A stretch of 64,000 nt of DNA from Candidatus Poribacteria bacterium (GTDB lineage: Bacteria > Poribacteria > WGA-4E > WGA-3G), in contig CBDBPM010000002.1 in NCBI GenBank assembly GCA_965208735.1, forward strand, positions 2,985,961 to 3,049,960, in the 5' to 3' direction. Numbering within the stretch: the stretch's first letter is position 1; each line of letters starts with the position of its first letter. Below, piece by piece: positions 628 through 62,664 of the stretch. The notes beneath the pieces were generated by a model, which saw only the letters and a list, made by a program, of their open reading frames with translations, was not told the origin of the DNA and did no database searches. The translations under genes were made by a program, and so were the position numbers.

Positions 628-820
628 CGGATCCTGGAAAAAAAGACCTAAAATCCAATAATTTCTTAAAATTGAATCGCCTTGAGCGCGATTGAAACAA
701 CAGTTGTTTTTTTTCCGTATTTGATGTATAATGCGTTTAAATCAAACCTTTAGTCATTTCATCTTTCGGAGGGAGCTACGCGACAATTGGACTGCGCTAA
801 TATATTAGGGGTGAAGGAAA

Positions 821-3538
821 ATGGATAACACACAGATCGGAAAACGACTCAATACATACGTGCCTGACTTAGATGTACCTTTTGAAGAGTTGCAAAAACA
901 ACTTGCTGCTTTCATCCAATCCGAGCGCGAGCAGCTAAAAGCCCGTATCTTAGAGGGCGAAAGTGGTTTTAGTGCTTGTGGCATACATACACAGATGTGG
1001 GATGTCGTGATTCAGAAAGTTTATGAGGTCGCTGCCTTCCAGATTCAGGACGAATACCAGAAGCAGATTGACGTGCTGAAGGAACTTCCAGACATTAACA
1101 CCGCCGACTTAGAAGCGGAATTTGAAGGATGGAAGCCGGATGTCGCACTCTATGGGGTTGGCAGTTACGGCAGAAATGAACTCTGCTATTTTTCGGATGT
1201 GGACGTTGTCTATACCTCCTCTGTGGATTTAGAGGATATTTACGATGAGAGCACGCTTGAACTGATCCGATGGTTCTATGATTTTTTTGACAGCCTCCAC
1301 TCCGTGATTCCGGGGTTTGAGTTCAGCTTTATCTATCGGCCGCTGGCGGATATAGCACAGTGGAATTACCAAGATATGACCGCACTGATTGATATGCGAT
1401 TTATTGCAGGTGACGCAACGCTGACGGAACGTTTCCGAAAAGCCGTACACTCTGAAAAATCGGATATCTCGCTTGTGTTGGATCTACTGAAATCCAAAGC
1501 AGATGCTTTCAAGGCTTCTGAGGATACCATCTATCTCAACCAACCGAATGTAAAAACAGGCAGAGGTGGACTCCGGACGCTTCAGTATGCACTCTGGATA
1601 TGTGGACTTCCAGATTTTATATCAATACCTGAACTCTACGAACGCTACGACGATGCGCAGCTCATACCGTCCCTTGATTTCATGTTTAAGGTGCGTAACC
1701 TGCTCCATGTGCTTGCCGATGCACCACATGATGATCTTAGCTATCACCCTGAGAAGGCAGATATGCTGCAGGCACAGATCGCTCGCGTCCTTGGATTAAC
1801 AGATGAAACCGACGAAGGGCGTTACGCGTTCATGGCGGAATATTACGCGAAGGCAAAATATCTGCATTTCAAAGCAGAGTTGTTGATCCGGAAGATGTTA
1901 GCAAACGGGATTCCTATCTCGGATGTGCTTGCGGTCAGGACGGACGTGCTCTATTGCATGGATAATAATTTCGGTGAGTTGGATGCAGGCGAACTCTTTA
2001 CACTGTTTACCTATTTCCAACAATACGATTTTGAAATCGATGCATCGCTTTCCACATTCATCTCCCGCTACGTTCACGCCTTTGATTGGCGTTCTTTCCA
2101 GAAACGCATGGCAGAGTTGATGAATATACCCGGTGATGTTGCGAAGACGCTCACACGGTTGCATAGACTCAATATCCTATCGCATCTCGGAGACGGAGGT
2201 GCACTTTTTGAAAAGGCGATGATGACACGGAGCGAACGGAGCCTTGATCCGTATACGGTTGGAAAACATACGCTCGTTGCGATTGGTCACCTTGATGAAA
2301 TCCGTCAAACAGAGTCGAGTAGTCCGTTTGGCGGGGCAGGTGGTTTTGGTGCGCCGGTGTCGCCGTCCCCGACTTCCGAATTGGAGGAACTCAACACCGC
2401 ATTTCGCGCGCTTTCGGATCCAGGTACACTCTATATGGCACTCTTCCTTCACGATATAGATAAGCCAGATCCGACCCATCCGATGACCGGTGCCGAAAAA
2501 GCGGAACGCATCGCACCCGAATTTGGGTTTAATTCACAACAGACAGATGATATCTGCTTTCTGATTCGGGAACACCTATCAATGATAGATTTGGCACGTT
2601 ATCACCATTGGGATGAAAGCACGATCGCCGAATTCTGTAAGAAGGTTAACTCGTTAGAGCGTTTAACTGCACTGTATCTGCTCACCTATTGCGACTCCAA
2701 AGCCAACGGTTCACAGAACTTCAGCCACGTCGTTAAGCATAACCTGAAGAGTTTGTACGAGGTGGCGCGCACCCGTTTCGTCGGTCAAGAGGAGACGCAG
2801 TGGGGTGCCTTTGCCCCCGTTGAAGAATTTCAGCAATTCCTTCACCACATGCCGGTCTCCTACCGTATTAGCGTTTCGCCTGAGGAGATCGCCATGCATA
2901 TAAAGATGACGACACAAGCAGAAGCAGCATCTACGGAAACAGATGCGACACCGAGTGCAGGGATCGTCCAATTTGTTGACCGTCCCGGATTTACCGAACT
3001 CCATCTCTGCAGTCCGAGCCGACTCGGAAAGTTGCACAGGGTGAGCGGTCTCTTTTACGCGAACGGCATAGATGTCCGGGATGCGCGCGTCTATACGAAA
3101 CAGGATACGAATATTGAGCTTGAAATCTATCGACTTGTCCATCAACCGCCCCATCACCGCGGAGAACCGATGCCACTTGACGAGGATCTCAAACGGGACC
3201 TCGATTTTGACATCCGTGGACTCTTAGCGGAGGAGGTTACACTCAACCAGATTTTTGAGAGGCACTATGTGAATCTGAATGAGACGTGGCAGGTTGATGA
3301 TGTCACTGTTGAGGCGGCACGAAGTTACTCAGAGATTGTCGTTGTCGGCGAAGAAAAAATGGGGTTTCTCCACTATTTCAGCGGTATCTTGGCGAAACTC
3401 GGATTGAACGTCGAAATGTGTAAGTGTTCGGGATTAGGTGGACAGGCGATTGATAGGTTCTATGTCCAACCGGTGGCTGATCCGAAAGCGGTACACGCTG
3501 ATATTATGGCGGCGTTGGATGCTGAAAATGGGCAATAG
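821..3538 (+). CDS. glnD: [Protein-PII] uridylyltransferase / uridylyl-removing enzyme (GlnD-like): NTase, HD and C-terminal ACT-like regions
   Basis: 905 aa. Nucleotidyltransferase motif GVGSYGRNELCYFSDVDVVY, HD motif LFLHDIDKPD, and a C-terminal region of about 180 aa consistent with two ACT domains. Length matches GlnD. Confidence 0.7.
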   Translation: MDNTQIGKRLNTYVPDLDVPFEELQKQLAAFIQSEREQLKARILEGESGFSACGIHTQMWDVVIQKVYEVAAFQIQDEYQKQIDVLKELPDINTADLEAEFEGWKPDVALYGVGSYGRNELCYFSDVDVVYTSSVDLEDIYDESTLELIRWFYDFFDSLHSVIPGFEFSFIYRPLADIAQWNYQDMTALIDMRFIAGDATLTERFRKAVHSEKSDISLVLDLLKSKADAFKASEDTIYLNQPNVKTGRGGLRTLQYALWICGLPDFISIPELYERYDDAQLIPSLDFMFKVRNLLHVLADAPHDDLSYHPEKADMLQAQIARVLGLTDETDEGRYAFMAEYYAKAKYLHFKAELLIRKMLANGIPISDVLAVRTDVLYCMDNNFGELDAGELFTLFTYFQQYDFEIDASLSTFISRYVHAFDWRSFQKRMAELMNIPGDVAKTLTRLHRLNILSHLGDGGALFEKAMMTRSERSLDPYTVGKHTLVAIGHLDEIRQTESSSPFGGAGGFGAPVSPSPTSELEELNTAFRALSDPGTLYMALFLHDIDKPDPTHPMTGAEKAERIAPEFGFNSQQTDDICFLIREHLSMIDLARYHHWDESTIAEFCKKVNSLERLTALYLLTYCDSKANGSQNFSHVVKHNLKSLYEVARTRFVGQEETQWGAFAPVEEFQQFLHHMPVSYRISVSPEEIAMHIKMTTQAEAASTETDATPSAGIVQFVDRPGFTELHLCSPSRLGKLHRVSGLFYANGIDVRDARVYTKQDTNIELEIYRLVHQPPHHRGEPMPLDEDLKRDLDFDIRGLLAEEVTLNQIFERHYVNLNETWQVDDVTVEAARSYSEIVVVGEEKMGFLHYFSGILAKLGLNVEMCKCSGLGGQAIDRFYVQPVADPKAVHADIMAALDAENGQ

Positions 3539-3546
3539 TCCTATGA

Positions 3547-3668
3547 TAGGACTTACGCAATTTTGACTGCAGCCCGTTCTGTTAGATGAGAATTTTCGGA
3601 AAACACAGCGTTCTGGTAGCACAAACTGGGAAGTTTGTGCTACAAAAGAGCAGCATGCGTAAGCCCTA
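3547..3668. mobile_element. MITE-like 122-bp element bounded by inverted copies of the IS terminal repeat TAGGACTTACGCAA
   Basis: 3547-3560 taggacttacgcaa matches the IRL of the IS at 59762. 3655-3668 atgcgtaagcccta matches the inverted IR at 62651 in 13 of 14 positions. The interior holds a perfect 12-bp-stem hairpin at 3616-3643. Confidence 0.5.
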
Positions 3669-3685
3669 TATGTCTACTTCATCTG

Positions 3686-3712
3686 GTAGGCGCGGTTTGG
3701 AACCGCGCCTAC
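3686..3712. repeat. GGTAG-hairpin family member (gtaggcgcggtt-tgg-aaccgcgcctac), 12-bp stem
   Basis: Perfect palindrome read in sequence. Related copies at 18058, 35836, 51216, 51398, 51442, 58121, 58182 and 62490. Confidence 0.7.
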
Positions 3713-3778
3713 GGAAACAGAATATTGCTCCACAATTTCAGATATGACGAAACAACAGTCTCGGTTTGAAGGAGAAAG

Positions 3779-4528
3779 ATGAAACAACGCGTACTCATTA
3801 CAGGTGCGGCTGGCACGGTCGGCACCGCGCTCTGGAAGGCGTGGGAAGAACAGGATACTTACACATTAACGTTGATGGATATCAATCCGATTGTGGACGC
3901 GAATTCGCGCGTGGTGATTGCTGATATTCGCGACTCTGCCGCGATGCAGACGTTGTGCCGCGAGCAAGATGTGTTGGTACATCTGGCATACATCCGCCAA
4001 GATTCGCTTGGGAAGGTGCCCGGCGAAGTCAGCGATATCGGTGCATCTATGAATCTGTTTGAAGCAGCACGAGAAGGTGGCGTTAAAAAGATTGTATACG
4101 CCAGCACGAATCACGTCTCGGGTTGGAATGAGCGATTGAACTCGCCACCCCGATTCTCGACAGGTGACCAGTTTCGTCCAGACGGTTGGTACGGTGCAAT
4201 GAAAGGCATGGCAGAGATTGCTGGACGGTATCTCGTGGATGCCCACGATATGCGGTTCATCAGTATCCGTATCGGGAGTTTCAACGGGACGGACGAACCG
4301 AGTGGGATTCGCCACTGTAGCATACTCCTAACCCCGCGAGATTGCGTCCAACTCTTCGGCTTGGCTGTTGATTACGATGGACCCGTTAAATATCTGATTA
4401 CGTACGGACGTTCTGCAAACTCTGACGGGTATCAGCAGAGCTATCTTGATATAAGCGGTGCTGTTGAGGTGTTAGGGTATCAACCGCAGGACAATTTGGT
4501 TAAAACGCATCTCCACCTTTTTTTATAA
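3779..4528 (+). CDS. NAD-dependent epimerase/dehydratase family protein (SDR Rossmann fold)
   Basis: N-terminal MKQRVLITGAAGTVGTAL glycine-rich NAD-binding motif, plus a conserved YxxxK-like region (WYGAMKG). 249 aa. Confidence 0.65.
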   Translation: MKQRVLITGAAGTVGTALWKAWEEQDTYTLTLMDINPIVDANSRVVIADIRDSAAMQTLCREQDVLVHLAYIRQDSLGKVPGEVSDIGASMNLFEAAREGGVKKIVYASTNHVSGWNERLNSPPRFSTGDQFRPDGWYGAMKGMAEIAGRYLVDAHDMRFISIRIGSFNGTDEPSGIRHCSILLTPRDCVQLFGLAVDYDGPVKYLITYGRSANSDGYQQSYLDISGAVEVLGYQPQDNLVKTHLHLFL

Positions 4529-4740
4529 TACCTTGCGGTTCGATCAAGGGGTTTGATGCGTTGGTGTCTTATTCCGTATATCCGTTCTCCATTACATTAC
4601 GAACTATGTTTTTCGTACTAAGAAGAAACTGATTTTTAATATACCTTGCGGTTCGGTCAAACGGGTTTGATGCGTTGGTGTCTTATTCCGTATATCCGTT
4701 CTCCATTACATTACGAACTATGTTTTTGTTTTTTTAAATA
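4528..4740 (+). repeat. Tandem direct duplication of about 113 bp (two copies), each starting ATACCTTGCGGTTCG and preceded by a TATAAT-like box
   Basis: Copy 1 is 4528-4640 and copy 2 is 4641-about 4740. They are near-identical over more than 95 bp, including cgttggtgtcttattccgtatatccgttctccattacattacgaactatgttttt. Confidence 0.85.
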
Positions 4741-18854: not shown

Positions 18855-19235
18855 CTACACCATCCACCGTTCGCCAATACCGAGCAGTGCCATCAATACT
18901 TGCAAAAGCACGCTCTCGGCATCAGGTCCGATAAACTGTCGATGTGTATCAATATAGGTGCCGTAATCGGCAGCCCATTCACGAAAATAGGTTTGATATT
19001 CCCAACCGTTAGCGGTGCGTTGGAAAATGGACCGATCCGGGTAGGGGAGTTTCTGTGTTAGGAGTTGCTGGAGTTGTTCGAGTGTCGGTATCCAAACGCC
19101 TTCGGTGTCTTCTGTTTCCGGACGGAGTGCCTGGATTTCAGAGTGCCGACATCTCTCCAAGTATTCTTGCGGATATTTCTGTTTCTCGGATTGATCCATA
19201 GGTTTGGATTGAGGACTTAATATCTCGTTTTTCAA
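18855..19235 (-). CDS. Hypothetical protein
   Basis: 126-aa ORF on the same strand as the neighbouring hypothetical gene. No recognisable motif. Confidence 0.4.
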   Translation of the reverse strand: MKNEILSPQSKPMDQSEKQKYPQEYLERCRHSEIQALRPETEDTEGVWIPTLEQLQQLLTQKLPYPDRSIFQRTANGWEYQTYFREWAADYGTYIDTHRQFIGPDAESVLLQVLMALLGIGERWMV

Positions 19236-27243: not shown

Positions 27244-27328
27244 GCCGGAGTGGTGAAATTGGTAGACGCACGGGACTCAAAATCCCGCGGGCCCTAGGTC
27301 CATGTCGGTTCGAGTCCGACCTCCGGCA
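27244..27328 (+). tRNA. tRNA-Leu (anticodon CAA), type II with long variable arm
   Basis: Acceptor stem GCCGGAG/CTCCGGC. Anticodon loop CUCAAAA. Long variable arm. T-arm GGTTCGAGTCC. No encoded CCA. Confidence 0.85.
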
Positions 27329-32441: not shown

Positions 32442-32792
32442 GGGGGTGTCCAGGTTTCGACGAAGGTAAATGAGATATAGGTTGCATGCCGAGGTCTCCG
32501 CAGGCCTCGTTAAATAGGCGGAACACTTATAATTGCTGATGAAGAATTAGCACTAGCTGCTTAAACGCGGCTACGCTTGACCGACCTGCTGCCCGTCAGG
32601 GAAGTTAAAGCGCCATAATACGGGCTAGCCGCTCGCTCTTTCTCAAGGCGCGTGCCGCGAACCACTTTTGAGATAGCCTATTATGAATCCTGCACAGGGG
32701 AGGCTTATAGGCGAATCTTAAAACCTGTGATAAGCATGTAGTAGCCTCTGTTGAAATGCCTTCGGACGCGGGTTCGATTCCCGCCACCTCCA
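32442..32792 (+). ncRNA. ssrA: Transfer-messenger RNA (tmRNA, SsrA); predicted tag reading frame 32520-32564 encoding GTLIIADEELALAA
   Basis: 5' GGGGGUGUCCAGGUUUCGACG. 3' T-arm GCGGGUUCGAUUCCCGC and acceptor CACCUCCA pairing with the 5' end. Internal ORF ends ...ALAA-stop. Directly downstream of smpB. Confidence 0.85.
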
Positions 32793-32889
32793 TTCCACAA
32801 CTGATACTCTTCTTGCCAGCGAAAGTCATCCGATCACTATCATCGTGATGGGATACTTTCGCAGACGATAGATTTGGTCGCGATATAAC

Positions 32890-35606: not shown

Positions 35607-35835
35607 TTTGGTAGTGTCTTTTAAGTGTCATAATGAATGTGTCATCCATTTTAATTTATACTATAGTTTGGACAATATTTCAGACATAGCACTCCGCTGG
35701 AGTGCCGGAGGTTTGCTACGATTCGCTGCTACTCTCACTGCGAGGCAATATTGCTCCGCTGGAGCAAAGACAAGCCTAAGCCCGCTTACCGGATACCCTA
35801 AATATAGATACCGTAAGTGTCAATTTAGGGATCCT

Positions 35836-35871
35836 CCAGGCCCGGTAGGTTCGGTTTCCTAACCGAACCGG
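35836..35871. repeat. GGTAG-hairpin family member (ccaggcccggtagg ttcggtttcctaaccgaacc gg)
   Basis: Palindrome read in sequence. Near-identical copies, with compensatory stem changes, at 51398, 51442 and 62490. Confidence 0.7.
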
Positions 35872-36193
35872 ACTTATCCTAACCAGGTCCCCGGTTTCTT
35901 GTTTAGCGGAAGCCCTGTTTAGCAAACGCTGCATCTGAAGGTTTTCGCGGAGTATCCGATGCGGTTAGGAATGCAGATCGCAAATGTAAAGCAAAGACAA
36001 ATTTTGCCGCGTGTGGGCAAAATTTGGGTGAGTACACCGCGATGCACGTCGCATCTGGGCGAGTACGCCGCAAAAACCGCATCTACCGGCCTGGAATATT
36101 CAGCGCATAATTGCAAATCGGAATGAGTTTTGCGCTTCAATGGCGATACAATTTTTCGAGAATATTCAGAGATAATTAAAGGAGGTTTGCATT

Positions 36194-39577: not shown

Positions 39578-41137
39578 ATGCGAAACTTAGCTGAAAGTCG
39601 CCGGGAGACTGCTGTAAAAGAACTCGGCTCCACACAAATCAAACGAAATGTAAGCATTGTCGGTCTTGTCATCTTCAGTGTGACGCTGCTGTCCGTTCCG
39701 ATCTGCCAATTGATCTCCGATGGTCTGCGTGGTGAGTCGCCTCACATCTTTCGAGCAATTAATTTGTTACCGGTCCCTAACCTCACAGAGATTGAGCAGT
39801 ACGAGGATACGCTGGAGGAAGAATCTGTACTGACCCATTGGCTGTTGCCGAGCGTTCAGACGGTTCTGACGCAGATGTTCTTTATCGGCAACGAACAAGC
39901 CTATCTCGGACGCGACGGGTGGTTATTCTACCGTGCCGACATAGATTCACTCATTACTCCTGACTCCCAAGAAACTGCAAGCACAGCACTCGCTGCCATT
40001 ATCGACTTCAATCGTCAGTTGCAAGCACGCGACATCACGCTTATCATTGTGCCAACACCTGTTAAACCAACAATTCACCCTGAAAAGTTCTCGACACGTT
40101 CCCGAACCGCTAATGCACCAATACAGAACCCTTCCTACGCAGCGTTTGTTGAGACACTTACGGCAGAAGGCGTGCTTGTATACGATCCCTCGCCACTGCT
40201 CTTTGCAGCTGCCCGCCGAGACCCACAATATCTCAAAACGGATACACACTGGAAACCGGAAGCGATGGAACGCGTCGCGAAACAATTGGCTGCATTTATT
40301 GAGGACAAGGTTCAACTGTCCTCAGATCCATCGTTTACGTACCTCAAAACACCCGCGGATACTGCTAATATCGGGGATATCGCGAAGATGTTAAAACTGC
40401 CGGAAGATCAGTCGCTGTTTCCCTCAGAACACGTCACACGCCATGTTGTTCAGATCCCTTCAGGGAACCTATGGCAACCCGTGCAGGCATCAGAGATTCT
40501 ATTTTTGGGAGATAGTTTCAGCAACATCTATTCGCTTGCGGGTATGGGATGGGGCGATTCCGCGGGTTTCGTTGAACATCTCAGCGCAGAACTTGCGCGA
40601 CCGATTGATAAAATTGTCATCAACGCTGGTGGTGCTGATGCAACGCGTCAGGCACTTGTACAGGGACTCAACCGTGGACACGATCGCCTCGCTGGGAAAC
40701 GCGTGCTTGTCTATCAGTTCGCAACGCGGGAACTCTTCTCTGGCGATTGGAAACTATTATCAATACCACAGGTTCAAACTGCTGAGCAGTCACAAACGAC
40801 ATTGACTGACCAAAGCGAAGACATAGTTGTTACGGCAACTATCAAGGCAAAGACAGAACCGCCGATGCCGCGAACCGTTCCGTATTCCGAATGCATCATC
40901 GCGCTACATCTTGAAAATCTTGAGACAGTTCATCTGCCAGCGGAATTCGCTGTATTTTTGTGGGGCATGCGTGAGAATCAGTGGACAAATGCCGCTACTT
41001 TCAAAGTAGGACAGAAAATTGAGCTGCGGCTCCGTCCATGGACAGCGGTTGAAACTGAATACGGCAGCTACAATCGCAAGGAGTTGGAGGATGAAGACGC
41101 GTGGTTACTGGATGTTTATTGGGGAGAGATACCGTGA
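39578..41137 (+). CDS. DHHW-family protein (AlgJ/AlgX-like O-acetyltransferase component)
   Basis: N-terminal TM helix; ...GRDGWLFY... and the DTHW motif (KTDTHWKPE). Confidence 0.6.
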   Translation: MRNLAESRRETAVKELGSTQIKRNVSIVGLVIFSVTLLSVPICQLISDGLRGESPHIFRAINLLPVPNLTEIEQYEDTLEEESVLTHWLLPSVQTVLTQMFFIGNEQAYLGRDGWLFYRADIDSLITPDSQETASTALAAIIDFNRQLQARDITLIIVPTPVKPTIHPEKFSTRSRTANAPIQNPSYAAFVETLTAEGVLVYDPSPLLFAAARRDPQYLKTDTHWKPEAMERVAKQLAAFIEDKVQLSSDPSFTYLKTPADTANIGDIAKMLKLPEDQSLFPSEHVTRHVVQIPSGNLWQPVQASEILFLGDSFSNIYSLAGMGWGDSAGFVEHLSAELARPIDKIVINAGGADATRQALVQGLNRGHDRLAGKRVLVYQFATRELFSGDWKLLSIPQVQTAEQSQTTLTDQSEDIVVTATIKAKTEPPMPRTVPYSECIIALHLENLETVHLPAEFAVFLWGMRENQWTNAATFKVGQKIELRLRPWTAVETEYGSYNRKELEDEDAWLLDVYWGEIP

Positions 41138-42189
41138 TAATTTTGGGAAATCTATGTCTTTTGAAGAAGGGCTTGCCTGCTAAGTTCTGCGCGTTATTAT
41201 TTGTCCTAATACTGGTGGAGTTTCCTAACTTCACCGTTGCTGAAACGGAACTTTTTATACAGTCGTTGGCTGAAAAGGCTGCCGAAGCCGAAACACAACA
41301 GACAACAGTCATTTCCGGGAAAGAAGGGTGGTTGTTCTTTGCTCCTGAACTGCGCGCTATGAGCGTCGGACAATTTTGGGGCGATGCAGCGGTGCGCGTC
41401 AGTCGGACATCAAACCCTGAATTCGCCGATCCGCTTCCTGCTATCCTCGACTTCAAGGCGCAATTGGATAGGGCGGGTATTGCGCTTATCTTCGTTCCAA
41501 TACCGGCAAAAGCCACGATTTACCCTGAGATGATTTCCGAACATGGAGACGCAGCAACACGGACTGATGAACACCATCTAAAATTCTACAACATTTTGCG
41601 GGAGCACGGTGTAAATGTGCTTGACTTAACGCCGATTTTCCTGAAAAACAAATTCACCGATGCCGGACCTGTCTATTGTAAACAGGATACGCACTGGTCT
41701 GGACACGGGTGTGTATTGGCAGCGAAAGCGATTGCTAAAGCCATTGGTACGCCCGCGTGGACAGCAGAAATGCCTAAAAACGAGATAAAGACCGAAACTC
41801 GCACTATTGCAATTACGGGTGATCTCTGGAAAGAACTTGGCGACGAGAATCTGGAAAAAGAGCAATTACGACTCACTTATGTCAATGAGGGTGTCAGCAC
41901 GTCGTGGCGAGCGAGTCCGATTGTCCTGTTAGGAGACAGCCACAGTCTTGTTTTCCACGCGGGTGCAGATATGCATGCACAAGGTGCTGGATTGCCGGAT
42001 CATCTCGCGCATCAACTCGGGTTTCCTGTGGATGTCGTCGCGGTTCGTGGTTCCGGGGCAACGCCATCACGCTTGAACCTTTATCGACGACGCGATAACA
42101 TGAAAGGAAAACGGGTTGTTGTTTGGTGCTTGAGTGTCCGAGAATTTACAGAAGGGCAGGGGTGGCGGAAGGTGCCTATAATCCGGTGA
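41101..42189 (+). CDS. DHHW-family protein (AlgJ/AlgX-like), paralogue of the preceding gene
   Basis: ...GKEGWLFFAPELR... and QDTHWSGHG. The start may instead be a GTG overlapping the upstream stop near 41133. Confidence 0.6.
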   Translation: MVTGCLLGRDTVIILGNLCLLKKGLPAKFCALLFVLILVEFPNFTVAETELFIQSLAEKAAEAETQQTTVISGKEGWLFFAPELRAMSVGQFWGDAAVRVSRTSNPEFADPLPAILDFKAQLDRAGIALIFVPIPAKATIYPEMISEHGDAATRTDEHHLKFYNILREHGVNVLDLTPIFLKNKFTDAGPVYCKQDTHWSGHGCVLAAKAIAKAIGTPAWTAEMPKNEIKTETRTIAITGDLWKELGDENLEKEQLRLTYVNEGVSTSWRASPIVLLGDSHSLVFHAGADMHAQGAGLPDHLAHQLGFPVDVVAVRGSGATPSRLNLYRRRDNMKGKRVVVWCLSVREFTEGQGWRKVPIIR

Positions 42190-42260
42190 AGTAGAAACAA
42201 GGTTACAGCCTGTTGTAGACGGAAAACCCGGCGGAGCGTGCCTACTACTTGAAAAATAAA

Positions 42261-42287
42261 GTAGGGACAGAGTGAGCCTGTCCCTAC
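42261..42287. terminator. Bidirectional hairpin gtagggacag-agtgagc-ctgtccctac between convergent genes
   Basis: 10-bp perfect stem between the + gene ending at 42189 and the - gene ending at 42304. Confidence 0.5.
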
Positions 42288-42303
42288 AGGTGTTGAGGAA
42301 ATC

Positions 42304-43089
42304 CTATTCAAACTCGTAAACGAGGGTGACGTTTATGGTGACGGTGAGTTCTCCAGCTTGGATCGGGGTTGAGCTGCGAGCACTTTCTTCATCAGCAGCG
42401 AACTCAGCAGCCTCAGCAAAAGCGATGGGAGGTCCCGCAGCATGCGATGTTTCTATGATTGTGATCGGTTTTCCGAGTGTAACACCACTCGCCTCCGCTA
42501 AAGTTTGTGCCTTCGTTTCGGCATTCTTCACTGCTAAAGCACGCGCCTGTGCTTGTAAAGGTGTGGGGTCTTCAATCATGAATTGGATGGAGTTTACAAC
42601 GACAATATCTCCACCGGCTCCGGTAGCGTCGTCAATGATATCGCTAAGCGTTTCGAGGTCTCGAACCTCCGCACTAACGGTATTGTTCACTCTGTAACCA
42701 CGCAGCACACGCCCCTCATCCGTATAATCATACTGGGGGTAGATGCTGAAATTCTCCGTTCGGATGTCATTTTCAGCGATGTCGTTAGCTTTCAGAGAGT
42801 CTATCACCGCTGTCATCGCGCTTGCGGCTTCCTCGCGTGCCTCCTCGACTGTCTCTTTCTCGACAGACACACCTAAGTAAAGCGTCGCTATATCGGGTTC
42901 ACCTGTAACCGAACCGCTTCCGTTAACGTGGATGCTCCTGCTCTCCGGTGACGGAACCATCGGTGATATGATTTGTGGATCACATCCAGTGGTGCCTATG
43001 ACGAGCAATGAACAAAGGCTTAAACATAAAAATTTTAATCTCTTCACAGTAAATCTCCTTCGTTGCGGCAGCTGTACTGCGCGGTTCAT
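42304..43089 (-). CDS. SIMPL-domain (DUF541 / YggE-like) secreted protein
   Basis: Signal/lipobox-like N-terminus, then ...GSGSVTGEPDIATLYLGVSVE...YRVNNTVSAEVRDLETLSDIID... typical of SIMPL. Confidence 0.55.
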   Translation of the reverse strand: MNRAVQLPQRRRFTVKRLKFLCLSLCSLLVIGTTGCDPQIISPMVPSPESRSIHVNGSGSVTGEPDIATLYLGVSVEKETVEEAREEAASAMTAVIDSLKANDIAENDIRTENFSIYPQYDYTDEGRVLRGYRVNNTVSAEVRDLETLSDIIDDATGAGGDIVVVNSIQFMIEDPTPLQAQARALAVKNAETKAQTLAEASGVTLGKPITIIETSHAAGPPIAFAEAAEFAADEESARSSTPIQAGELTVTINVTLVYEFE

Positions 43090-43104
43090 ACGTTGATAAG
43101 TCCA

Positions 43105-44070
43105 CTACTCGGTTACAATTTCTGGTGAAGATGCTTCTGCCTTGAGCGTATCGGACTTCTTTATTAACCTGTCTACATTCGATTTGAAAAGTCTGAAAAC
43201 GGTATCATTATCGTCACGTTTGGCGTAAAGTTTCCCCTCTGCCTCGTTTCCGATGTACAGCGTTGCCGTGGTGCCATCATTCAAGGCAGCAGATATAACG
43301 GATTGCGGGGTATTTAAACCGTATTCAGCAAGGTCGTTCTGTGCTTCAGCAAAGTCGTCCGTATTCAATCCACTAAGCGTTGTAAGAAGGTTGTCAACCT
43401 CAGTTGTATTGGCGATAGCGGCTTCAGGCTTGAGCATCTGCCATGCCCCGTCTGCATCGAGACGCAATTCGACCGTTTCTTCTGGTGAAGAGATGTTAAG
43501 CTCGGTGACAATACCTTTGTTAAAATCAAAGATGGTCCGATCTTTCCAAGTGCGTGTACCTTTGTTAAAAACGGATTGGAGATTGCCTTGTGCGACATAG
43601 ACATCGTTGGAATCCGCTGCGCGCACGTAACTACTCAGAAAGCCGGGGGTTATTTTTCCAACAAACAGGTGTGCTAACACTTTATCGTTTACGTCTATCA
43701 GTTTCGCTTCGACACCAGTGCTATCCACTTCAAATTCTGCCTGTTTTTCTGGGTTACTGGAGACGCGCTGCGTATCCTTAAATTCTCCGACTTTGGTCAA
43801 CAGTTCAGCAACGCCTTCGCTATCCGCGGGATAGTTCTCCATTGAGGCTACTACCCATGCGCCCTCTTGTTTTGAGAGCGTTGTCGTTTCACCGGTAGCG
43901 ATGATCTCTATTTTCGCAACCTGTTCTTTATCGAAGCTTGGAAACAGCAGTGTTGCTGTTTGAACCTTCTTCTCGTATTCGCTCTGTCCAAATGGGTTCT
44001 CGAAGACAACGACAACGATTGCCAAAACGACGAGAACGCCACCTAAGATAAGAAGTTGTTTCGTTTTCAT
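43105..44070 (-). CDS. DUF4340-like periplasmic protein, fourth gene of the GldA/F/G-type ABC cluster
   Basis: N-terminal TM or signal anchor. Its position downstream of the GldG-like gene matches the conserved four-gene arrangement. Confidence 0.4.
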   Translation of the reverse strand: MKTKQLLILGGVLVVLAIVVVVFENPFGQSEYEKKVQTATLLFPSFDKEQVAKIEIIATGETTTLSKQEGAWVVASMENYPADSEGVAELLTKVGEFKDTQRVSSNPEKQAEFEVDSTGVEAKLIDVNDKVLAHLFVGKITPGFLSSYVRAADSNDVYVAQGNLQSVFNKGTRTWKDRTIFDFNKGIVTELNISSPEETVELRLDADGAWQMLKPEAAIANTTEVDNLLTTLSGLNTDDFAEAQNDLAEYGLNTPQSVISAALNDGTTATLYIGNEAEGKLYAKRDDNDTVFRLFKSNVDRLIKKSDTLKAEASSPEIVTE

Positions 44071-44208
44071 TTTTCGTATTTCGTATAAGGAGTAGTTCCA
44101 AATGTTCAGTTATGAGGTGTCTGTTATCGACCCATTGTGCTGATAACAAACAACCATTGGGGTTTATGTAATCAGTAGATTCGACCTTTTTTGATCACAC
44201 CGATTCAG

Positions 44209-45864
44209 TTAAGGTGCCATTGATTCTACTATCCGTTTTGTCCGCCTTTTTAAGAAATATCGGACGAGCCCGAAGATGATGACGAGGAACGAGACCCCAA
44301 CAGTACATAGGTATTTAATAAAGTTTTTCTCAATTTCAGATGCTTCTCGGAGGGGACGATCCGTGATAGCGTGAGAACGGATACCGATGAGGGTATCACC
44401 AAGGGTTAGCCAGTCCACAGTGTTTAAGAAAAAGTTGATTCCATCCGGACGCATCTGTGTTAGAAATTGCGCCGTGCCTACCACAACGATTTGCGTCTGT
44501 GCACTTTCAGGTATAGTTGTTTGTGCCTCAGTATCTTGTGTTGGGGCAGGTGTCTCGCTGTCATCCGGACTTGTAGCAGTGTCGGTTACTGCTGTTGGAA
44601 TTTCTTTATCGGCATAAAAACTTTTGAATTTACCTTCTAAAGCTAAAGCGACGGGATAGGCTTGCGTTTCTGCATTGGGTATGGGGAAATCTGGCATCAG
44701 ATTATAATAACCTTGGATAGTCTGTCCAAATTCACTCGTCTTTGCTAACGTCGTTGCGGTGACGTTTTCTTTCGGTATCACCTCTAAGGAACTTGTCCAA
44801 GGTAGGGTCAACGCCTCCAACTGGTTCGTAATGGTGTGTTCTGTCGAGAAATTTGATTTGACAATTTTAACAAAATACGGATACGGTTGAAAAACGGTTA
44901 TGAAGCCTTGTTGAAACCGAGCATTGTCATGGAATCTGCGGTCAATAAGCAGGTTATTGCCGAGTTTGGCTCCATAATGTGCCAGCAGATCGTTTAACCC
45001 TGTGCTCAGCGGTGTGCCTTGCAATGTACCCGGTGGTATTTGAATGGCATCAACCAAGAAGATCGCTCTACCACCCCGCATAATAAACTGGTCGAGTTCA
45101 TATTTCTCGCGTTCTGTCAACGGCTGCTTTACTGCCGCGATAACCAGTGTTGTCACGGTATCATCAACGGCTTTTCCGTCTTGCAAACTGACAGATGTGA
45201 CGTTATATTGTCCTTGTCCATTTTTATCCAAGAGTTGGCGGAACTGCTGATGGTTTTGAGCGTTGATGTCAAACGCGTCGTGCCCCGCCAAAAATCCAAC
45301 TGTTTTTGCTTCTTTGGTGGTAACCTTGAGAATAGTGGAGGTGAGTTCGTACTCCAGATTACTCGTTGAGCGCACGACCGGCAGGGTTTCCTCTTTGCCG
45401 CTGTAACCGATAGAGATCCCCATATAGACGTTCGCTATCTCCGCTTTGTCTTTTTTGACGACATTGATTTGTACCTCAGGGATCCCCTTAAAACGGAGTT
45501 CCTGTTTTTGTGCTTCCTCGAAATCAGCAGGATTCACAAAATCGATTTGGAGTTTATTTGAGAACGCATTGTATTCGTCTAACACATCTCTGACATCGCG
45601 GCGTATCCGAGCGACTTCCGCGGGTGTTGTGGAAAAGTACGCAGTGATCGTTACAATATCGTCTAATGTGTCTAATACATTTTTAGTCGCTTTTGAGATC
45701 GTATAACGCTTGTCCTCGGTGAGGTCTGCCCGAATAAAACGGCGGGTTGACAGAAAGTTAATCAGCGCAAGGATGCCGAAGATGATTACTACAAAAGCGA
45801 GGGTATTCCCACCGTATTTGATCTGTTTATTAGCCAAGATAGTTCCCTCCTTTCCTAACGCCAT
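44209..45864 (-). CDS. GldG-like ABC-transporter auxiliary component
   Basis: 551 aa with N- and C-terminal TM anchors and a large periplasmic domain. Adjacent to the ABC-2 permease and ATPase. Confidence 0.5.
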   Translation of the reverse strand: MALGKEGTILANKQIKYGGNTLAFVVIIFGILALINFLSTRRFIRADLTEDKRYTISKATKNVLDTLDDIVTITAYFSTTPAEVARIRRDVRDVLDEYNAFSNKLQIDFVNPADFEEAQKQELRFKGIPEVQINVVKKDKAEIANVYMGISIGYSGKEETLPVVRSTSNLEYELTSTILKVTTKEAKTVGFLAGHDAFDINAQNHQQFRQLLDKNGQGQYNVTSVSLQDGKAVDDTVTTLVIAAVKQPLTEREKYELDQFIMRGGRAIFLVDAIQIPPGTLQGTPLSTGLNDLLAHYGAKLGNNLLIDRRFHDNARFQQGFITVFQPYPYFVKIVKSNFSTEHTITNQLEALTLPWTSSLEVIPKENVTATTLAKTSEFGQTIQGYYNLMPDFPIPNAETQAYPVALALEGKFKSFYADKEIPTAVTDTATSPDDSETPAPTQDTEAQTTIPESAQTQIVVVGTAQFLTQMRPDGINFFLNTVDWLTLGDTLIGIRSHAITDRPLREASEIEKNFIKYLCTVGVSFLVIIFGLVRYFLKRRTKRIVESMAP

Positions 45865-46571
45865 TTACGGCTTTCAACTGCTAATGTACTTAAATATAGA
45901 AAAAAACCGATTAGCGACAGATAGTAGATAATGTCGCGGGAATCGAGCACGCCGCGTAAAATGCTACTATAATGCGCACCAAGTCCGAGATAACTGAAGA
46001 TCGGAACCAACCAATTCGGGGTCTTGAAAAGTACAAAGTCTTCACCGATGAGGAGCAGCACAAGGCAAACAACAATACCAATAATGAAGGCAATAATCTG
46101 ATTTTCCGTTAGTGTTGAGGCGAAGAACCCAATCGCAATATAGGCGGCACCCATCAACAGGAGTCCGATATATCCAGCGATCAGTGTCCCAACATCGGGG
46201 TTCCCAAGGGACATGATTGAAAATGGGATGACGAGTGTAAGTAGCACTGTTACGGCAAGGAGCGCGAAACTCGCCAAAAATTTTCCGACGACGACCTCAT
46301 AATCTCGAATCGGTAGGGTCATCAGGATCTCTATTGTACCGATTTTCTTTTCTTCAGACCAAAGTTTCATAGTGACAGCAGGAATGAAGAACAGAAATAT
46401 CCACGGCATTAACCCGAAAAAACTGCGCATTTCTGCTTGGTTAACAATAAAAAAGTTCTGGAAAAAGAGCCAGGCGGAGATACCGAGGAAGAATGTTATG
46501 AAAATATACGCAATTGGCGAATTAAAGTAACTTCTGAATTCTTTTTTGAGAATAGCTGTGATGTTTTGCAT
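45855..46571 (-). CDS. ABC-2 type transporter permease (GldF-like)
   Basis: 238 aa with six predicted TM helices. Overlaps the GldG-like gene by 10 bp. Confidence 0.6.
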   Translation of the reverse strand: MQNITAILKKEFRSYFNSPIAYIFITFFLGISAWLFFQNFFIVNQAEMRSFFGLMPWIFLFFIPAVTMKLWSEEKKIGTIEILMTLPIRDYEVVVGKFLASFALLAVTVLLTLVIPFSIMSLGNPDVGTLIAGYIGLLLMGAAYIAIGFFASTLTENQIIAFIIGIVVCLVLLLIGEDFVLFKTPNWLVPIFSYLGLGAHYSSILRGVLDSRDIIYYLSLIGFFLYLSTLAVESRKWR

Positions 46572-46668
46572 AAGTATTCTATTATTCTATGAACGGGGCG
46601 CGGTTTTAATAAACCCCAATTGGAAGCATGCTTTTTGCCAAATTACTCAAAAGCATTTTACCGAGTTT

Positions 46669-47682: not shown

Positions 47683-47834
47683 ACTTCTAAAGTGGTAGGC
47701 GGTCAACGGGAGGAGTCGCCTCCCGACGTGCCTTAAAAGATGGGATAGATATATGTTTAAAATAATAGCATAGAATTTGCCGAATGTCAAGAAAAAATTA
47801 ATATAAAATCGTAGCGATTTGGGCTGTTGAACCA

Positions 47835-49766: not shown

Positions 49767-50046
49767 ATTTCAAGGAGAAGAACGATACCCGTTAGCTTTC
49801 TTGTCAATTCGGTTGTGACCTGTAAAAACTAAGGGTTCTGATGTATCTCTTGGTTAGGAAACTTGGGTTGTAAAGTAGACGCGGTATTATAGAACGTGTC
49901 TTGTGAGTTTATTGAAATTGCAGATATTTTTCTTTACTGTATTCACTCAATATGTTATACTAAATGGAGACGCTTGTCAAGATTTTTGTCCAAATTGGTT
50001 GAATGTTCTGAATCGAATTAGCAATTTTTCATACGGAGATTTTGGG

Positions 50047-51159: not shown

Positions 51160-51215
51160 GAGATGTGATTTTTATAGCATACGTGCCGTTGGCGCGGAAA
51201 ATAAGCCTTTATTTG

Positions 51216-51246
51216 CTGGCGAGGTTTGAAACCTCGCCAGTTTTTG
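51216..51246 (+). terminator. Rho-independent terminator of dnaN: ctggcgaggttt-ga-aacctcgccag followed by TTTTT
   Basis: 11-bp stem and a U-run, about 55 nt after the dnaN stop. A near-identical hairpin is at 58182. Confidence 0.6.
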
Positions 51247-51397
51247 GTACCTGTACCGTCTTTATCTGAAAGCCCGGATGGGATGCCGTATCGCGTCTGG
51301 ACACGATACGGCACTCACGCCTAAATTCTATCACCATAGATGTCAATTTAGGGTTTCCGTAGGTGTTTTTGAAGTCTTCAATATTTCCGCGTAGAAT

Positions 51398-51469
51398 CCG
51401 GTTCGGTTAGGAAACCGAACCTACCGAGTCTGGGGTAGCATCCGGTTCGGTTAGGAAATCGAACCTACC
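51398..51469. repeat. Two tandem GGTAG-hairpin family copies in inverted orientation (ccggttcggttaggaaaccgaacctacc and ccggttcggttaggaaatcgaacctaccc)
   Basis: Read in sequence; they are reverse complements of the copy at 35836. Confidence 0.7.
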
Positions 51470-51490
51470 CGACATGGGTCTGATGAGACT

Positions 51491-57962: not shown

Positions 57963-58120
57963 ATTGTTGTCCTTTCTTTATCTTTAACTAAGGGTCGTTT
58001 GTAGGTTCCCTCGTTTGAAGTAAGTTTATCATTTTAGACAGGTTTTGTCAAGTCAATTTTTGGGTGTCTAAGAGCGTTCCGCCTTCGGTTCCTTAGTAAG
58101 ATTTTGGATCATCAGACCCA

Positions 58121-58204
58121 GTAGGCGCGGTTTGTAACCGCGCCGGACGTTCAAGGAACGCGTTGTATTTACCCGTCTTCGCTGGCGAGGTTTCTAACCT
58201 CGCC
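58121..58204. repeat. Two GGTAG-hairpin family copies (gtaggcgcggtttgtaaccgcgcc and ctggcgaggtttctaacctcgcc)
   Basis: Read in sequence; the second is near-identical to the dnaN terminator hairpin. Confidence 0.7.
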
Positions 58205-58276
58205 TTACATTAATTGTCAGGGGTATTTGGAAGGATAAATTTGGGGTGGTTCTACTGTTTCGTTAGCATTCGTATG

Positions 58277-62336: not shown

Positions 62337-62489
62337 AAATTGTCAGATGTAATTCTTTGTCAAAAGCGATGATACGTGCTTGTGAGCGGGTTTGGAACAA
62401 CCGCGCTAATTGCTCATAGGACATCTCTCTTTTGCTACTTCTCTGATGTGTGAAATACCCATTAGCGGTTTTGTAATTCTATATTTTCC

Positions 62490-62525
62490 CCAGGCCAGGT
62501 AGGTGCGGTTTCCTAACCGCACCGG
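62490..62525. repeat. GGTAG-hairpin family member (ccaggccaggtagg tgcggtttcctaaccgcacc gg) with a compensatory stem change relative to 35836
   Basis: ttcgg/ccgaa at 35836 versus tgcgg/ccgca here. Confidence 0.7.
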
Positions 62526-62664
62526 GCATCTCTAAAAAATTACCGAATTTAAAAATTAATCTTCATTTAGTTTGCGGAACTTACAGACACAATCTAACAG
62601 ATTATGCTACAAAGGTGGCAACTTGCGTTATTATAACACGAAAGCGGGAAATGCGTAAGTCCTA

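What the first reader, a model, noticed from the sequence alone, without database searches (positions are those of the whole stretch)
3616..3712. Dispersed GGTAG-flanked hairpin repeat family with compensatory stem mutations (at least 10 copies in 64 kb)
Copies at 3616, 3686, 18058, 35836, 51216, 51398, 51442, 58121, 58182 and 62490 share the form (C)CAGG-GGTAG-stem-GGTTT-loop-AACC-stem-CTAC. The stems differ between copies but remain perfectly paired (e.g. ttcgg/ccgaa versus tgcgg/ccgca, gcgcgg/ccgcgc, gcgagg/cctcgc). That is covariation evidence for selection on the secondary structure. Some copies are followed by a T-run and sit after genes (dnaN), acting as intrinsic terminators. Others occur in pairs in opposite orientation with no T-run, which is REP/BIME-like behaviour. 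At 35810 and 51315 they are accompanied by a second conserved hairpin, CCTAAAT-N19-ATTTAGGG.
Basis: seen in the sequence. Interest (0 to 1): 0.55.

Follow-up and report, generated by a model that had tools for sequence, protein, structure and literature searches.

The report
Poribacteria REP elements (GTAG-tagged hairpin repeats)
The repeated hairpins are a family of REP elements, small palindromic DNA repeats spread by a domesticated transposase (RAYT), in the genome of a sponge-symbiont Poribacteria bacterium; this is a known kind of element that I found no description of in this phylum.

Summary
The repeat family is real. A covariance model finds 10 copies in the 64-kb window, all between genes (E 1e-13 to 7e-4). 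The consensus is CGGTAGG-NNCGG-TTTCCTAA-CCGNN-CCGG.

A scan of genome contigs with the core pattern returned 118 stretches, 109 of them from Candidatus Poribacteria MAGs (about 54 assemblies). The two stem positions left free in that pattern are complementary in 127 of 146 matches, against about 6% by chance, in 7 paired types.

The anatomy is that of a GTAG-tagged REP:
- a 5' GTAG followed by a 9-bp perfect palindrome and a conserved, oriented loop;
- 97% of copies extragenic;
- inverted doublets with the GTAG ends outside.

In related genomes, REP-associated tyrosine transposase genes (NCBIfam NF047646, 124-128 bits, cutoff 80) are flanked by these same repeats. One flanking pair belongs to the GCTGGCGAGG sub-family present in the window.

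Relatives have an empty glnD-epimerase site where the window carries a REP. The copy after dnaN, with its T5 run, is conserved in place and is terminator-like.

- The 3616 hairpin is a different element, inside an IS701-type MITE.
- The pairs in the window are tandem, not inverted.
- Only one copy has a T-run.

Verdict: new member of a known kind, modest interest.

The parts
3678..3714 (.). REP copy. Fully palindromic: GTAG-GCGCGGTT-TGG-AACCGCGC-CTAC (core 3686-3712).
   Evidence: Model R1 scores 38.8 bits on + and 32.3 bits on -. DNA fold -15.6 kcal/mol, z -6.25. Absent from the orthologous glnD-epimerase gap of four relatives.
10877..10914 (+). Degenerate REP copy with a GTGG head and one stem mismatch, 14 nt after the stop of ORF 8281-10863.
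   Evidence: 19.8 bits, E 7e-4. Sequence. Weak fold, z -1.06.
18053..18089 (-). REP copy (GTAG-GCGCGCTT-TGG-AAGCGCGC) between the convergent genes 13385-18034(+) and 18101-18877(-).
   Evidence: 33.7 bits, E 4e-8.
35837..35874 (+). REP copy of the canonical sub-family: CCCGGTAGGTTCGGTTTCCTAACCGAACCGGA.
   Evidence: 51.4 bits, E 1.7e-13.
35796..35830 (+). Linker module (CCCTAAAT-N19-ATTTAGGG, containing GTCAATTTAG) next to the REP.
   Evidence: GTCAATTTA follows or precedes REP hairpins in most of its 57 occurrences in the window and the loci (55 of them in the loci; by eye in the listing).
51207..51243 (+). REP-family copy with a GCTG head (GCTGGCGAGGTTTGAAACCTCGCCAG) followed by T5, 55 nt after the dnaN stop. 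It is terminator-like and fixed in place.
   Evidence: 30.1 bits. Terminator scan hit at 51215-51241. Conserved at the same position in L121-L124, with G.T wobble changes and the T5 run kept. Same sub-family as the pair flanking the RAYT gene in L120.
51320..51353 (+). Second copy of the linker module (CCTAAAT-N19-ATTTAGGG).
51395..51432 (-). REP copy, first of a tandem pair with a 44-bp period, downstream of the minus-strand gene 51491-52393.
   Evidence: 50.5 bits. Absent from the dnaN-downstream region of four relatives.
51439..51476 (-). REP copy, second of the tandem pair (one stem mismatch), 15 nt after the stop of 51491-52393(-).
   Evidence: 40.8 bits.
58113..58149 (+). REP copy (AGTAG-GCGCGGTT-TGT-AACCGCGC-CGGA), first of a tandem pair with a 60-bp period.
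   Evidence: 46.8 bits; context.
58173..58209 (+). REP copy with a GCTG head (GCTGGCGAGGTTTCTAACCTCGCC), second of the tandem pair.
   Evidence: 34.2 bits.
62491..62528 (+). REP copy of the canonical sub-family (GGTAGGTGCGGTTTCCTAACCGCACCGGG), set inside a GGTAATT...AATTAC context that recurs in other Poribacteria genomes.
   Evidence: 49.4 bits. 91% match of 62473-62574 to L083..

Best explanation
These are REP elements (repetitive extragenic palindromes) of the GTAG-tagged super-family in a Candidatus Poribacteria genome.

Each unit has a 5' GTAG, usually as CGGTAGG. This is followed by a 9-bp perfect palindrome whose outer positions vary in a complementary way. The inner GGTT/AACC and the oriented loop TCCT are conserved.

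Most likely mechanism (inferred from homology, not shown here): when the DNA is single-stranded the unit folds into a hairpin. A REP-associated tyrosine transposase (RAYT/TnpA_REP, an HUH/Y1 enzyme related to IS200/IS605 transposases) recognises the hairpin, loop and GTAG and cleaves nearby. It thereby copies or moves the units around the chromosome. The need for an intact stem would explain why stem changes survive only as compensatory pairs and form sub-families.

Shown here: the copies are extragenic. They vary in presence between close relatives. Cognate RAYT genes in related genomes are flanked by the same repeats. At least one copy (after dnaN, followed by T5) is fixed in place across relatives and looks co-opted as an intrinsic terminator.
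For: (1) Anatomy. GTAG is at least 90% conserved, and the stem is 99.4% paired across 139 distinct copies, with changes on both sides at 5 of 9 pairs. In the genome-scan pattern the two free stem positions are complementary in 127 of 146 matches, in 7 paired types. The loop is TCCT or TCCC in 131 copies against AGGA in 5 of 188, so the units are oriented.

(2) Distribution. There are 10 copies in 64 kb, all intergenic. In 0.9 Mb of related DNA, 182 of 188 copies are extragenic. Convergent regions outnumber divergent ones 24 to 11, against a background of 68 to 70. Doublets with the GTAG ends outside outnumber the reverse arrangement 15 to 1, typically with a 22-nt spacer. These are the patterns described for GTAG REPs (PMC3733652).

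(3) Transposase. L042 2012-2485 and L110 4091-4564 match NCBIfam NF047646 'REP-associated tyrosine transposase' at 128 and 124 bits (cutoff 80) and Pfam Y1_Tnp. They carry HUH (PDHVH) and Y..NPV motifs and hit PDB 4er8, the E. coli TnpA_REP. The L042 gene sits inside arrays of this REP. In L120 a 76%-identical RAYT is bracketed by an inverted pair GCTGGCGAGGTTTCCTAACCTCGCC at 814-851(+) and 1332-1369(-). This is the sub-family seen at window 51207 and 58173.

(4) Turnover. The glnD-epimerase gap is 240 bp in the window (a MITE plus a REP). In relatives with 89-91% identical epimerase it is 20, 20 and 28 bp, and 114 bp without a REP. The model finds no hit in those 15 kb. The tandem pair at 51395-51476 is absent from 4 relatives.

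(5) Phylogenetic restriction. 109 of 118 scan stretches are from Poribacteria. The window's DnaN is 93-94% identical to proteins from Poribacteria assemblies.

(6) Published biochemistry for short perfect-palindrome ('group 3') REPs. GTAG and the loop base are required for cleavage, a stem mismatch impairs it, and complementary stem swaps matter little (PMC8266576). This matches the conservation pattern seen here.
Against: No RAYT gene lies in the window, and the window's own genome could not be searched, so the cognate enzyme is inferred from related genomes only.

Only two clean REP-flanked RAYT loci were found (L042, L120). A third RAYT (L110) is flanked by a different repeat.

No biochemical or transcript data exist.

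Some copies sit inside larger composite repeats (linker modules, a ~105-nt MITE-like unit). Part of their spread could therefore be by hitch-hiking rather than by RAYT.

Confidence: 0.85

Rival explanations
1. The hairpins are a family of transcription terminators or mRNA 3'-end stabilisers that evolve in place. The covariation would reflect selection on RNA structure rather than mobile DNA.
For: The copy after dnaN has a 12-pair stem plus T5 and is conserved at the same place in four relatives, with G.T (G.U-compatible) changes on the transcribed strand. Copies favour convergent over divergent regions, 24 to 11. Several lie 12-20 nt after stop codons.
Against: Only 1 of 10 window copies and 7 of 188 related copies have a T-run. 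Orientation relative to the upstream gene is 55 same to 46 opposite. Copies occur in tandem and inverted clusters and flank RAYT genes. The site is empty in close relatives. The GTAG head and the oriented loop are conserved, which a terminator does not need.
Confidence: 0.07
2. The hairpins are internal parts (cargo) of MITEs moved by DDE transposases such as the IS701-family element in the window, not by a RAYT.
For: The 3616 hairpin does lie inside a TIR-bounded MITE-like unit that shares its TIR with the IS at 59762-60851. In related genomes a ~105-nt unit with imperfect terminal inverted repeats carries this REP at its centre in several places in one genome. Linker modules accompany many copies.
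Against: Most copies, including 3678-3714, 18053-18089, 58113-58209 and 10877-10914, have no TIRs around them. The flanks beyond about 10 nt are unconserved. The same core occurs in many different contexts. RAYT genes are directly bracketed by bare copies.
Confidence: 0.05
3. The hairpins are binding sites for a host DNA-binding protein (a nucleoid protein, a regulator, or a DNA-uptake sequence arranged as inverted repeats).
For: The conserved core GGTTTCCTAACC and the head are shared by about 54 species-level genomes. E. coli REP/BIMEs do bind IHF and gyrase (as stated in PMC8266576).
Against: Stem positions change freely as long as pairing is kept. That points to a folded single strand rather than a duplex sequence motif. 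No candidate protein is known, and this reading does not explain the association with RAYT.
Confidence: 0.03

Closest known systems
GTAG-tagged REPs of the short perfect-palindrome type ('group 3' REPtrons, e.g. Stenotrophomonas maltophilia REP/SMAG and Pseudomonas REPs; Di Nocera 2013 PMC3733652; Corneloup 2021 PMC8266576)
   Same: A 5' GTAG followed by an 8-9-bp perfect palindrome and a 3-4-nt loop. Sub-families with alternative complementary stem residues. Extragenic location with a bias to convergent and unidirectional gaps. Dimers with the GTAG ends outside. A RAYT gene flanked by the repeats.
   Different: A different sequence (GGTAGG-NNCGG-TTTCCTAA-CCGNN-CCGG). The host is the candidate phylum Poribacteria, which is not among the phyla listed in the 2013 survey (0 mentions). 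One consensus is shared by about 54 species-level genomes. A GCTG-headed sub-family flanks one RAYT. The RAYT group of the Poribacteria enzyme was not determined.
E. coli REP/BIME with RayT (TnpA_REP, PDB 4er8)
   Same: A GTAG head, a hairpin, clustering with conserved linker motifs, and an HUH/Y1 enzyme (28% identity over the catalytic core).
   Different: E. coli REPs are longer imperfect palindromes with an obligatory bulge. The window's pairs are tandem rather than alternating. The linkers are unrelated.
REPINs (Bertels and Rainey 2011, PMC3116915)
   Same: Inverted REP doublets with a short spacer are common in related genomes: 15 doublets with heads outside, typically 22 nt apart. The association with RAYT also matches.
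   Different: In the window itself the copies are singletons or tandem pairs. No clean REPIN doublet is present.
IS200/IS605 subterminal hairpins
   Same: Hairpins recognised as single-stranded DNA by a Y1 HUH transposase. A separate IS200-like gene (NF033573, 72 bits) exists in L009 and L042.
   Different: REPs are not ends of an IS, and no transposase gene lies between most pairs.

Membership tests
GTAG-tagged REP | Short (20-50 nt) palindrome able to form a stem-loop | tested here: met
   9-12-bp perfect stems with 3-4-nt loops. DNA folds of -9.8 to -15.6 kcal/mol with z -2.7 to -8 for intact copies.
GTAG-tagged REP | Conserved tetranucleotide (most often GTAG) at one end | tested here: met
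   G/T/A/G columns are at least 90% conserved in the 43-sequence alignment. In the window 7 copies have GTAG, 1 has GTGG and 2 have GCTG. The head and the loop orientation are coupled.
GTAG-tagged REP | High copy number, dispersed over the genome | tested here: inconclusive
   10 copies in 64 kb and 255 model hits in 917 kb of related loci.
GTAG-tagged REP | Predominantly extragenic, favouring convergent and unidirectional gaps | tested here: met
   10 of 10 copies in the window. 182 of 188 in the loci. Convergent 24 against divergent 11 regions, with a background of 68 to 70.
GTAG-tagged REP | Arranged as dimers or clusters (BIME/REPIN-like), often with linker motifs | tested here: met
   Two tandem pairs in the window. 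In the loci, 15 doublets with heads outside, 1 with heads inside and 16 tandem. A recurrent linker CC-ATAGGC-GTCAATTTAG.
GTAG-tagged REP | Cognate RAYT/TnpA_REP gene flanked by the same REPs (REPtron) | tested here: met
   Met in related genomes: L042 and L120. Not testable for the window's own genome. There is no RAYT in the window (best E 0.68).
GTAG-tagged REP | Sub-families with alternative complementary stem residues | tested here: met
   127 of 146 free dinucleotide pairs are complementary, in 7 types. 5 of 9 pairs show changes on both sides.
GTAG-tagged REP | Single-stranded hairpin bound and cleaved by the RAYT | not testable with these tools
   Requires biochemistry. Inferred from PMC3479197 and PMC8266576.
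Intrinsic (Rho-independent) terminator | GC-rich hairpin immediately followed by a T-run | tested here: not met
   1 of 10 window copies and 7 of 188 related copies. Met only for 51215-51241.
Intrinsic (Rho-independent) terminator | Orientation tied to the upstream gene | tested here: not met
   55 same against 46 opposite in unidirectional gaps.
MITE | Terminal inverted repeats bounding the unit, with target-site duplication | tested here: not met
   Flanks beyond about 10 nt are not conserved. Met instead by the separate element at 3547-3668 that contains the 3616 hairpin.
CRISPR array | Regularly spaced repeats separated by unique spacers | tested here: not met
   Copies are singletons or pairs dispersed over 60 kb. 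In the clusters of L042 the 'spacers' are themselves repeated.
Any Rfam RNA family | Match at the gathering score | tested here: not met
   Only tmRNA and a tRNA were found in the window.

The most novel reading that the evidence does not exclude
A single REP consensus, with its RAYT, has persisted across the sponge-associated candidate phylum Poribacteria (about 54 species-level genomes). That would make it an unusually deep, vertically inherited REP-RAYT system. It would include variants of interest: a GCTG-headed sub-family that still flanks a RAYT (implying altered head recognition), REPs inserted into the loops of other REPs, and copies co-opted as terminators of core genes such as dnaN.
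Probability: 0.4. Interest if true: 0.45.

Novelty: new member of a known kind. Interest (0 to 1): 0.3.

Why it matters
REPs are best studied in Proteobacteria. A well-defined family in an uncultivated sponge-symbiont phylum adds a deep-branching case to the REP-RAYT picture. Its features are a conserved head and loop, compensatory stem sub-families, visible filled and empty sites, and identifiable RAYT genes.

Practical uses:
- The covariance model can be used to mask or annotate these repeats in Poribacteria MAGs, where they are likely to break short-read assemblies.
- The repeats can serve as a lineage marker in sponge metagenomes.
- They mark candidate terminators.

None of this changes the current understanding of how REPs work.

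Tried and rejected
- My first literal pattern, GGTAG-N6-GGTTT, missed the family because the spacing was wrong.
- A crude HUH/Y regex for RAYT found nothing because the motif was too strict. tblastn with E. coli RayT then found the genes.
- I first read AGGACTTACGCA as a promoter -35 element, since TATAAT lies 17 nt downstream in two copies. I dropped that in favour of an IS701-family terminal inverted repeat once the transposase between two inverted copies was identified.
- Exact-protein look-ups of two window proteins found no record, so the window's own genome is not in that collection.
- Rfam has no matching family.
- The CRISPR, terminator-family, MITE and protein-binding-site readings were considered and rejected, as set out under the rival explanations and the membership tests.
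- A G.T versus A.C mismatch bias, as a test of RNA-level selection, had too few mismatches to be informative.
- Strand bias relative to replication could not be tested on 8-kb loci.

Full report

Reading the listed coordinates shows a hairpin at each of them. The pattern GGTAG-N12-34-CTAC occurs 10 times against 3.1 expected, and none of 100 shuffles reaches 10.

I aligned window copies with related copies and built a covariance model with a 9-pair stem. Run over the window without filters, it finds 10 distinct copies with E-values from 1.7e-13 to 7e-4:
- 3678-3714, palindromic and scoring on both strands
- 10877-10914(+)
- 18053-18089(-)
- 35837-35874(+)
- 51207-51243(+)
- 51395-51432(-)
- 51439-51476(-)
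- 58113-58149(+)
- 58173-58209(+)
- 62491-62528(+)

The tenth (10877) is a decayed copy with a GTGG head, 14 nt after a stop codon. All ten lie between ORFs. As single-stranded DNA the intact copies fold at -9.8 to -15.6 kcal/mol, well below shuffled controls.

**2. Corrections to the description**

The hairpin at 3616-3643 (GTAG-CACAAACT-GGGA-AGTTTGTG-CTAC) is real, but the model does not score it. It sits inside a ~122-bp unit at 3547-3668, bounded by the inverted repeats TAGGACTTACGCA and TAGGGCTTACGCA. The same 13-14-nt terminal repeat bounds an insertion sequence at 59762-60851. That element's ORF (59768-60808, minus strand) matches an IS701-family transposase model at 373 bits. The first 'copy' is therefore part of a MITE-like relative of that IS, and the TIR-plus-hairpin module recurs in other Poribacteria genomes.

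Other corrections:
- The pairs 51395/51439 and 58113/58173 are tandem (same strand, periods of 44 and 60 bp), not inverted.
- Only the copy after dnaN is followed by a T-run.
- Two copies (51207, 58173) carry GCTG instead of GTAG.

**3. Where else does the family occur?**

I scanned one genome per bacterial and archaeal species for GTAGGNNCGGTTTNNNAACCGNNCC. Of these, 109 are from Candidatus Poribacteria MAGs, about 54 different assemblies.

The window is itself from this group:
- Its DnaN is 93-94% identical to proteins from Poribacteria assemblies.
- Its GlnD is 72% identical to a Poribacteria locus.

Outside the repeats the window shares almost no nucleotide similarity with these loci. The repeat is therefore conserved against a diverged background.

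**4. Is the stem covariation real?**

In the scan pattern two stem positions on each arm were left free. They are complementary in 127 of 146 matches (87%, against about 6% by chance). They fall into seven paired types, dominated by TG/CA (65) and TT/AA (48).

On 139 distinct model-aligned copies:
- 99.4% of cells are paired.
- 5 of 9 pairs show changes on both sides.
- Sliding the partner by one to three columns drops pairing to 21-46%.

The head GTAG, the inner GGTT/AACC and the loop are nearly invariant. The loop is TCCT or TCCC in 131 of 188 copies and AGGA in 5, so the units have a fixed polarity.

**5. What kind of element is it?**

[quoted passage not shown] That survey also reports that REPs lie mainly between unidirectional and convergent ORFs, and that dimers with the GTAG ends outside are the commonest type (PMC3733652).

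I tested these points on 188 perfect-stem copies in 0.9 Mb of related DNA:
- 182 are extragenic.
- Convergent gaps outnumber divergent ones 24 to 11, against a background of 68 to 70.
- Orientation relative to the upstream gene is 55 same to 46 opposite.
- Only 7 have a T4 run downstream.
- Among neighbours within 150 nt, 15 are doublets with heads outside (typically 22 nt apart), 1 has heads inside and 16 are tandem.

**6. The transposase**

tblastn with E. coli RayT (fetched) against the loci found two genes.
- L042 2012-2485 and L110 4091-4564 (157 aa each, 56% identical) match NCBIfam NF047646 'REP-associated tyrosine transposase' at 128 and 124 bits (cutoff 80). They also match Pfam Y1_Tnp.
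- They carry the HUH motif (PDHVH/PDHIH) and the tyrosine motif (YCYANPV/YCYENPV).
- They hit the solved structures of ISDra2 TnpA and E. coli TnpA_REP.
- The L042 gene is embedded in arrays of this REP on both sides, and its stop codon lies in the loop of a copy.

A search of metagenome contigs with the two proteins found one more locus, L120. There a 76%-identical RAYT (868-1332) is bracketed by an inverted pair GCTGGCGAGGTTTCCTAACCTCGCC at 814-851(+) and 1332-1369(-). This is the GCTG-headed sub-family present in the window at 51207 and 58173.

The L110 RAYT is flanked by a different repeat (GTGGGAGGGGTTTACAACCCC, four tandem copies). At least two REP/RAYT pairs therefore exist in the phylum.

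No RAYT lies in the window.

**7. Mobility and fixation at orthologous sites**

*glnD-epimerase gap.* I fetched the syntenic regions of close relatives through homologous proteins. The gap is 240 bp in the window and contains the MITE-like unit and the REP at 3678-3714. In relatives whose epimerase is 89-91% identical it is 20 bp (L125, L126), 28 bp (L128), and 114 bp without any REP (L127). The ribosome-binding region is alignable on both sides. The model finds nothing in those 15 kb. These are empty sites, so the window's copy is an insertion.

*dnaN 3' end.* Here the hairpin with its T5 run is present at the same place in all four relatives examined (DnaN 89-94% identical).
- L122 (GAGG/CTTC) and L123/L124 (GCGAGG/CCTTGC) carry C-to-T changes that give G.T wobbles on the transcribed strand.
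- L121 has an enlarged loop.
- The site also scores as terminator-like.

This copy is fixed and plausibly co-opted as the dnaN terminator. The tandem pair and the linker further downstream in the window are absent from all four relatives, where other genes occupy the gap.

**8. How it most likely works**

*Shown:* the sequence anatomy, the pairing constraint, the extragenic and clustered distribution, the restriction to Poribacteria, RAYT genes flanked by the repeats, and filled against empty sites.

*Inferred from published biochemistry:* the RAYT binds the folded single strand and cleaves nearby, and this spreads the units. For short perfect-palindrome REPs, single mutations in GTAG abolish or reduce cleavage. 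Reversing the loop abolishes binding. A mismatch in the stem nearly eliminates cleavage. Complementary swaps have only mild effects (PMC8266576). This is exactly the pattern of conservation and variation seen here, so the 'covariation' is best read as selection for a foldable DNA substrate. It does not demonstrate an RNA structure.

RNA-level roles (termination, 3'-end protection) are likely secondary and copy-specific. Only the dnaN copy has direct support.

**9. The second hairpin and the mosaic context**

The motif GTCAATTTAG at 35819 and 51342 is part of a module (…CC-ATAGGC-GTCAATTTAG-N5-CCTCCAGGCCC-GGTAGG…). In related genomes this module links successive REPs, and it also occurs as long inverted pairs. 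It behaves like a BIME linker or the end of another small element.

REPs of this family also sit at the centre of a ~105-nt unit with imperfect terminal repeats that is multi-copy within one genome. In L121 the same unit carries the CACAAAC-type hairpin instead. In L042 some REPs have 32-48-nt insertions in their loops. Poribacteria intergenic DNA is therefore a mosaic of several small repeat families.

**10. Novelty**

The library holds no paper that mentions both Poribacteria and REPs, RAYTs or REPINs in a relevant way. The 2013 survey of GTAG repeats does not mention the phylum.

The element is a new member of a well-known kind. Points of modest interest are:
- the breadth of conservation of one consensus across about 54 species-level genomes;
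- the GCTG-headed sub-family flanking a RAYT;
- the clean example of one copy fixed as a terminator while others turn over.

Interest 0.3.

Noticed in passing
window 3547-3668: A ~122-bp MITE-like unit bounded by the inverted repeats TAGGACTTACGCAA and TAGGGCTTACGCAT. It contains the GTAG-CACAAACT hairpin (3616-3643). It is absent from the orthologous gap in four relatives. The TIR-plus-hairpin module recurs in L014, L083 and L099.
   Followed up: partly
window 59762-60851: An insertion sequence of 1090 bp. It has 14-nt perfect terminal inverted repeats (TAGGACTTACGCAA) and an IS701-family transposase ORF at 59768-60808(-) (NF049921, 373 bits), 66% identical to a copy in L106.
   Followed up: partly
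window 62651-62664 (-): A solo copy of the same TIR. It is followed after 17 nt by TATAAT, then by a GTAGCATAATCTGTTAGATTGTG hairpin and the REP at 62491. The whole ~200-bp arrangement resembles segments in L018, L072, L083 and L111. It may be a composite mobile unit or an outward-facing promoter.
   Followed up: no
window 35796-35830 and 51320-51353; loci: The linker module containing GTCAATTTAG. In related genomes it follows the 3' end of REP hairpins as CC-ATAGGC-GTCAATTTAG. It also forms 18-nt inverted pairs (CTAAATTGACGCCTATGG...), so it may be the end of another small mobile element.
   Followed up: partly
window 42261-42287: Another GTAG...CTAC palindrome (GTAGGGACAG-AGTGAGC-CTGTCCCTAC) between the convergent genes 41101-42189(+) and 42304-43089(-). 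It is not a member of the main family (8.3 bits).
   Followed up: no
window 4528-4646: Two copies of ACCTTGCGGTTCG(A/G)TCAA in the gap after the epimerase gene. The same motif (as ACCTTGCGGTTCGGTTAGG and close variants) is present in L125 and L127 but not in L126 or L128, where the gap is about 20 bp. It resembles half of the REP (CGGTTCGGTTAGG).
   Followed up: no
L004 2277-2379, L058 4597-4702, L070 5353-5469 (one genome); L121 about 3790-3920: A ~105-nt dispersed unit with imperfect ~29-nt terminal inverted repeats (TATAGTGAA..AAATAGACAC / GTGyC..ATTAATTCTAAAnTTTACTATA). At its centre it carries either the main REP or the CACAAAC-type hairpin.
   Followed up: partly
L042 1327-1396, 1717-1786, 1906-1981, 3036-3111: REP copies whose loops carry 32-48-nt insertions. 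One inserted sequence contains a GTAGCATAATTTG motif. This looks like insertion of small elements into REP loops.
   Followed up: no
L110 3990-4090 and 4580-4770: A second Poribacteria RAYT is flanked by a different repeat: four tandem copies of TTGTGGGAGGGGTTTACAACCCCGATATATTTGCGCTTTC downstream and a REPIN-like doublet upstream.
   Followed up: no
L009 5634-6113(-), L042 7019-7498(-): A conserved 159-aa IS200/IS605-type Y1 transposase (NF033573, 72 bits), distinct from the RAYT, found in two genomes. In L009 it lies about 290 nt from a REP copy.
   Followed up: partly
window 51285-51312: A separate 9-bp inverted repeat, GCCGTATCG-N10-CGATACGGC, between the dnaN terminator copy and the linker module.
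   Followed up: no
window about 42000-52000: Genes switch from mostly plus-strand to mostly minus-strand, and cumulative GC skew peaks near 52 kb, next to dnaN. No dnaA-like ORF was looked for.
   Followed up: no
window 32442-32795 and 27244-27328: tmRNA (tag ADEELALAA) and tRNA-Leu(CAA). Both are ordinary.
   Followed up: no
L007, L055, L062, L074, L076, L087: The scan pattern also hit a distinct GTAG palindrome, GTAGGGGCGGTTTGCGAACCGCCCC(TAC), in MAGs labelled Acetothermia, Terriglobia, Omnitrophota, 'bacterium' (unclassified, L074), Acidobacteria and Latescibacterota. It has the same central GGTTT..AACC but a different stem.
   Followed up: no
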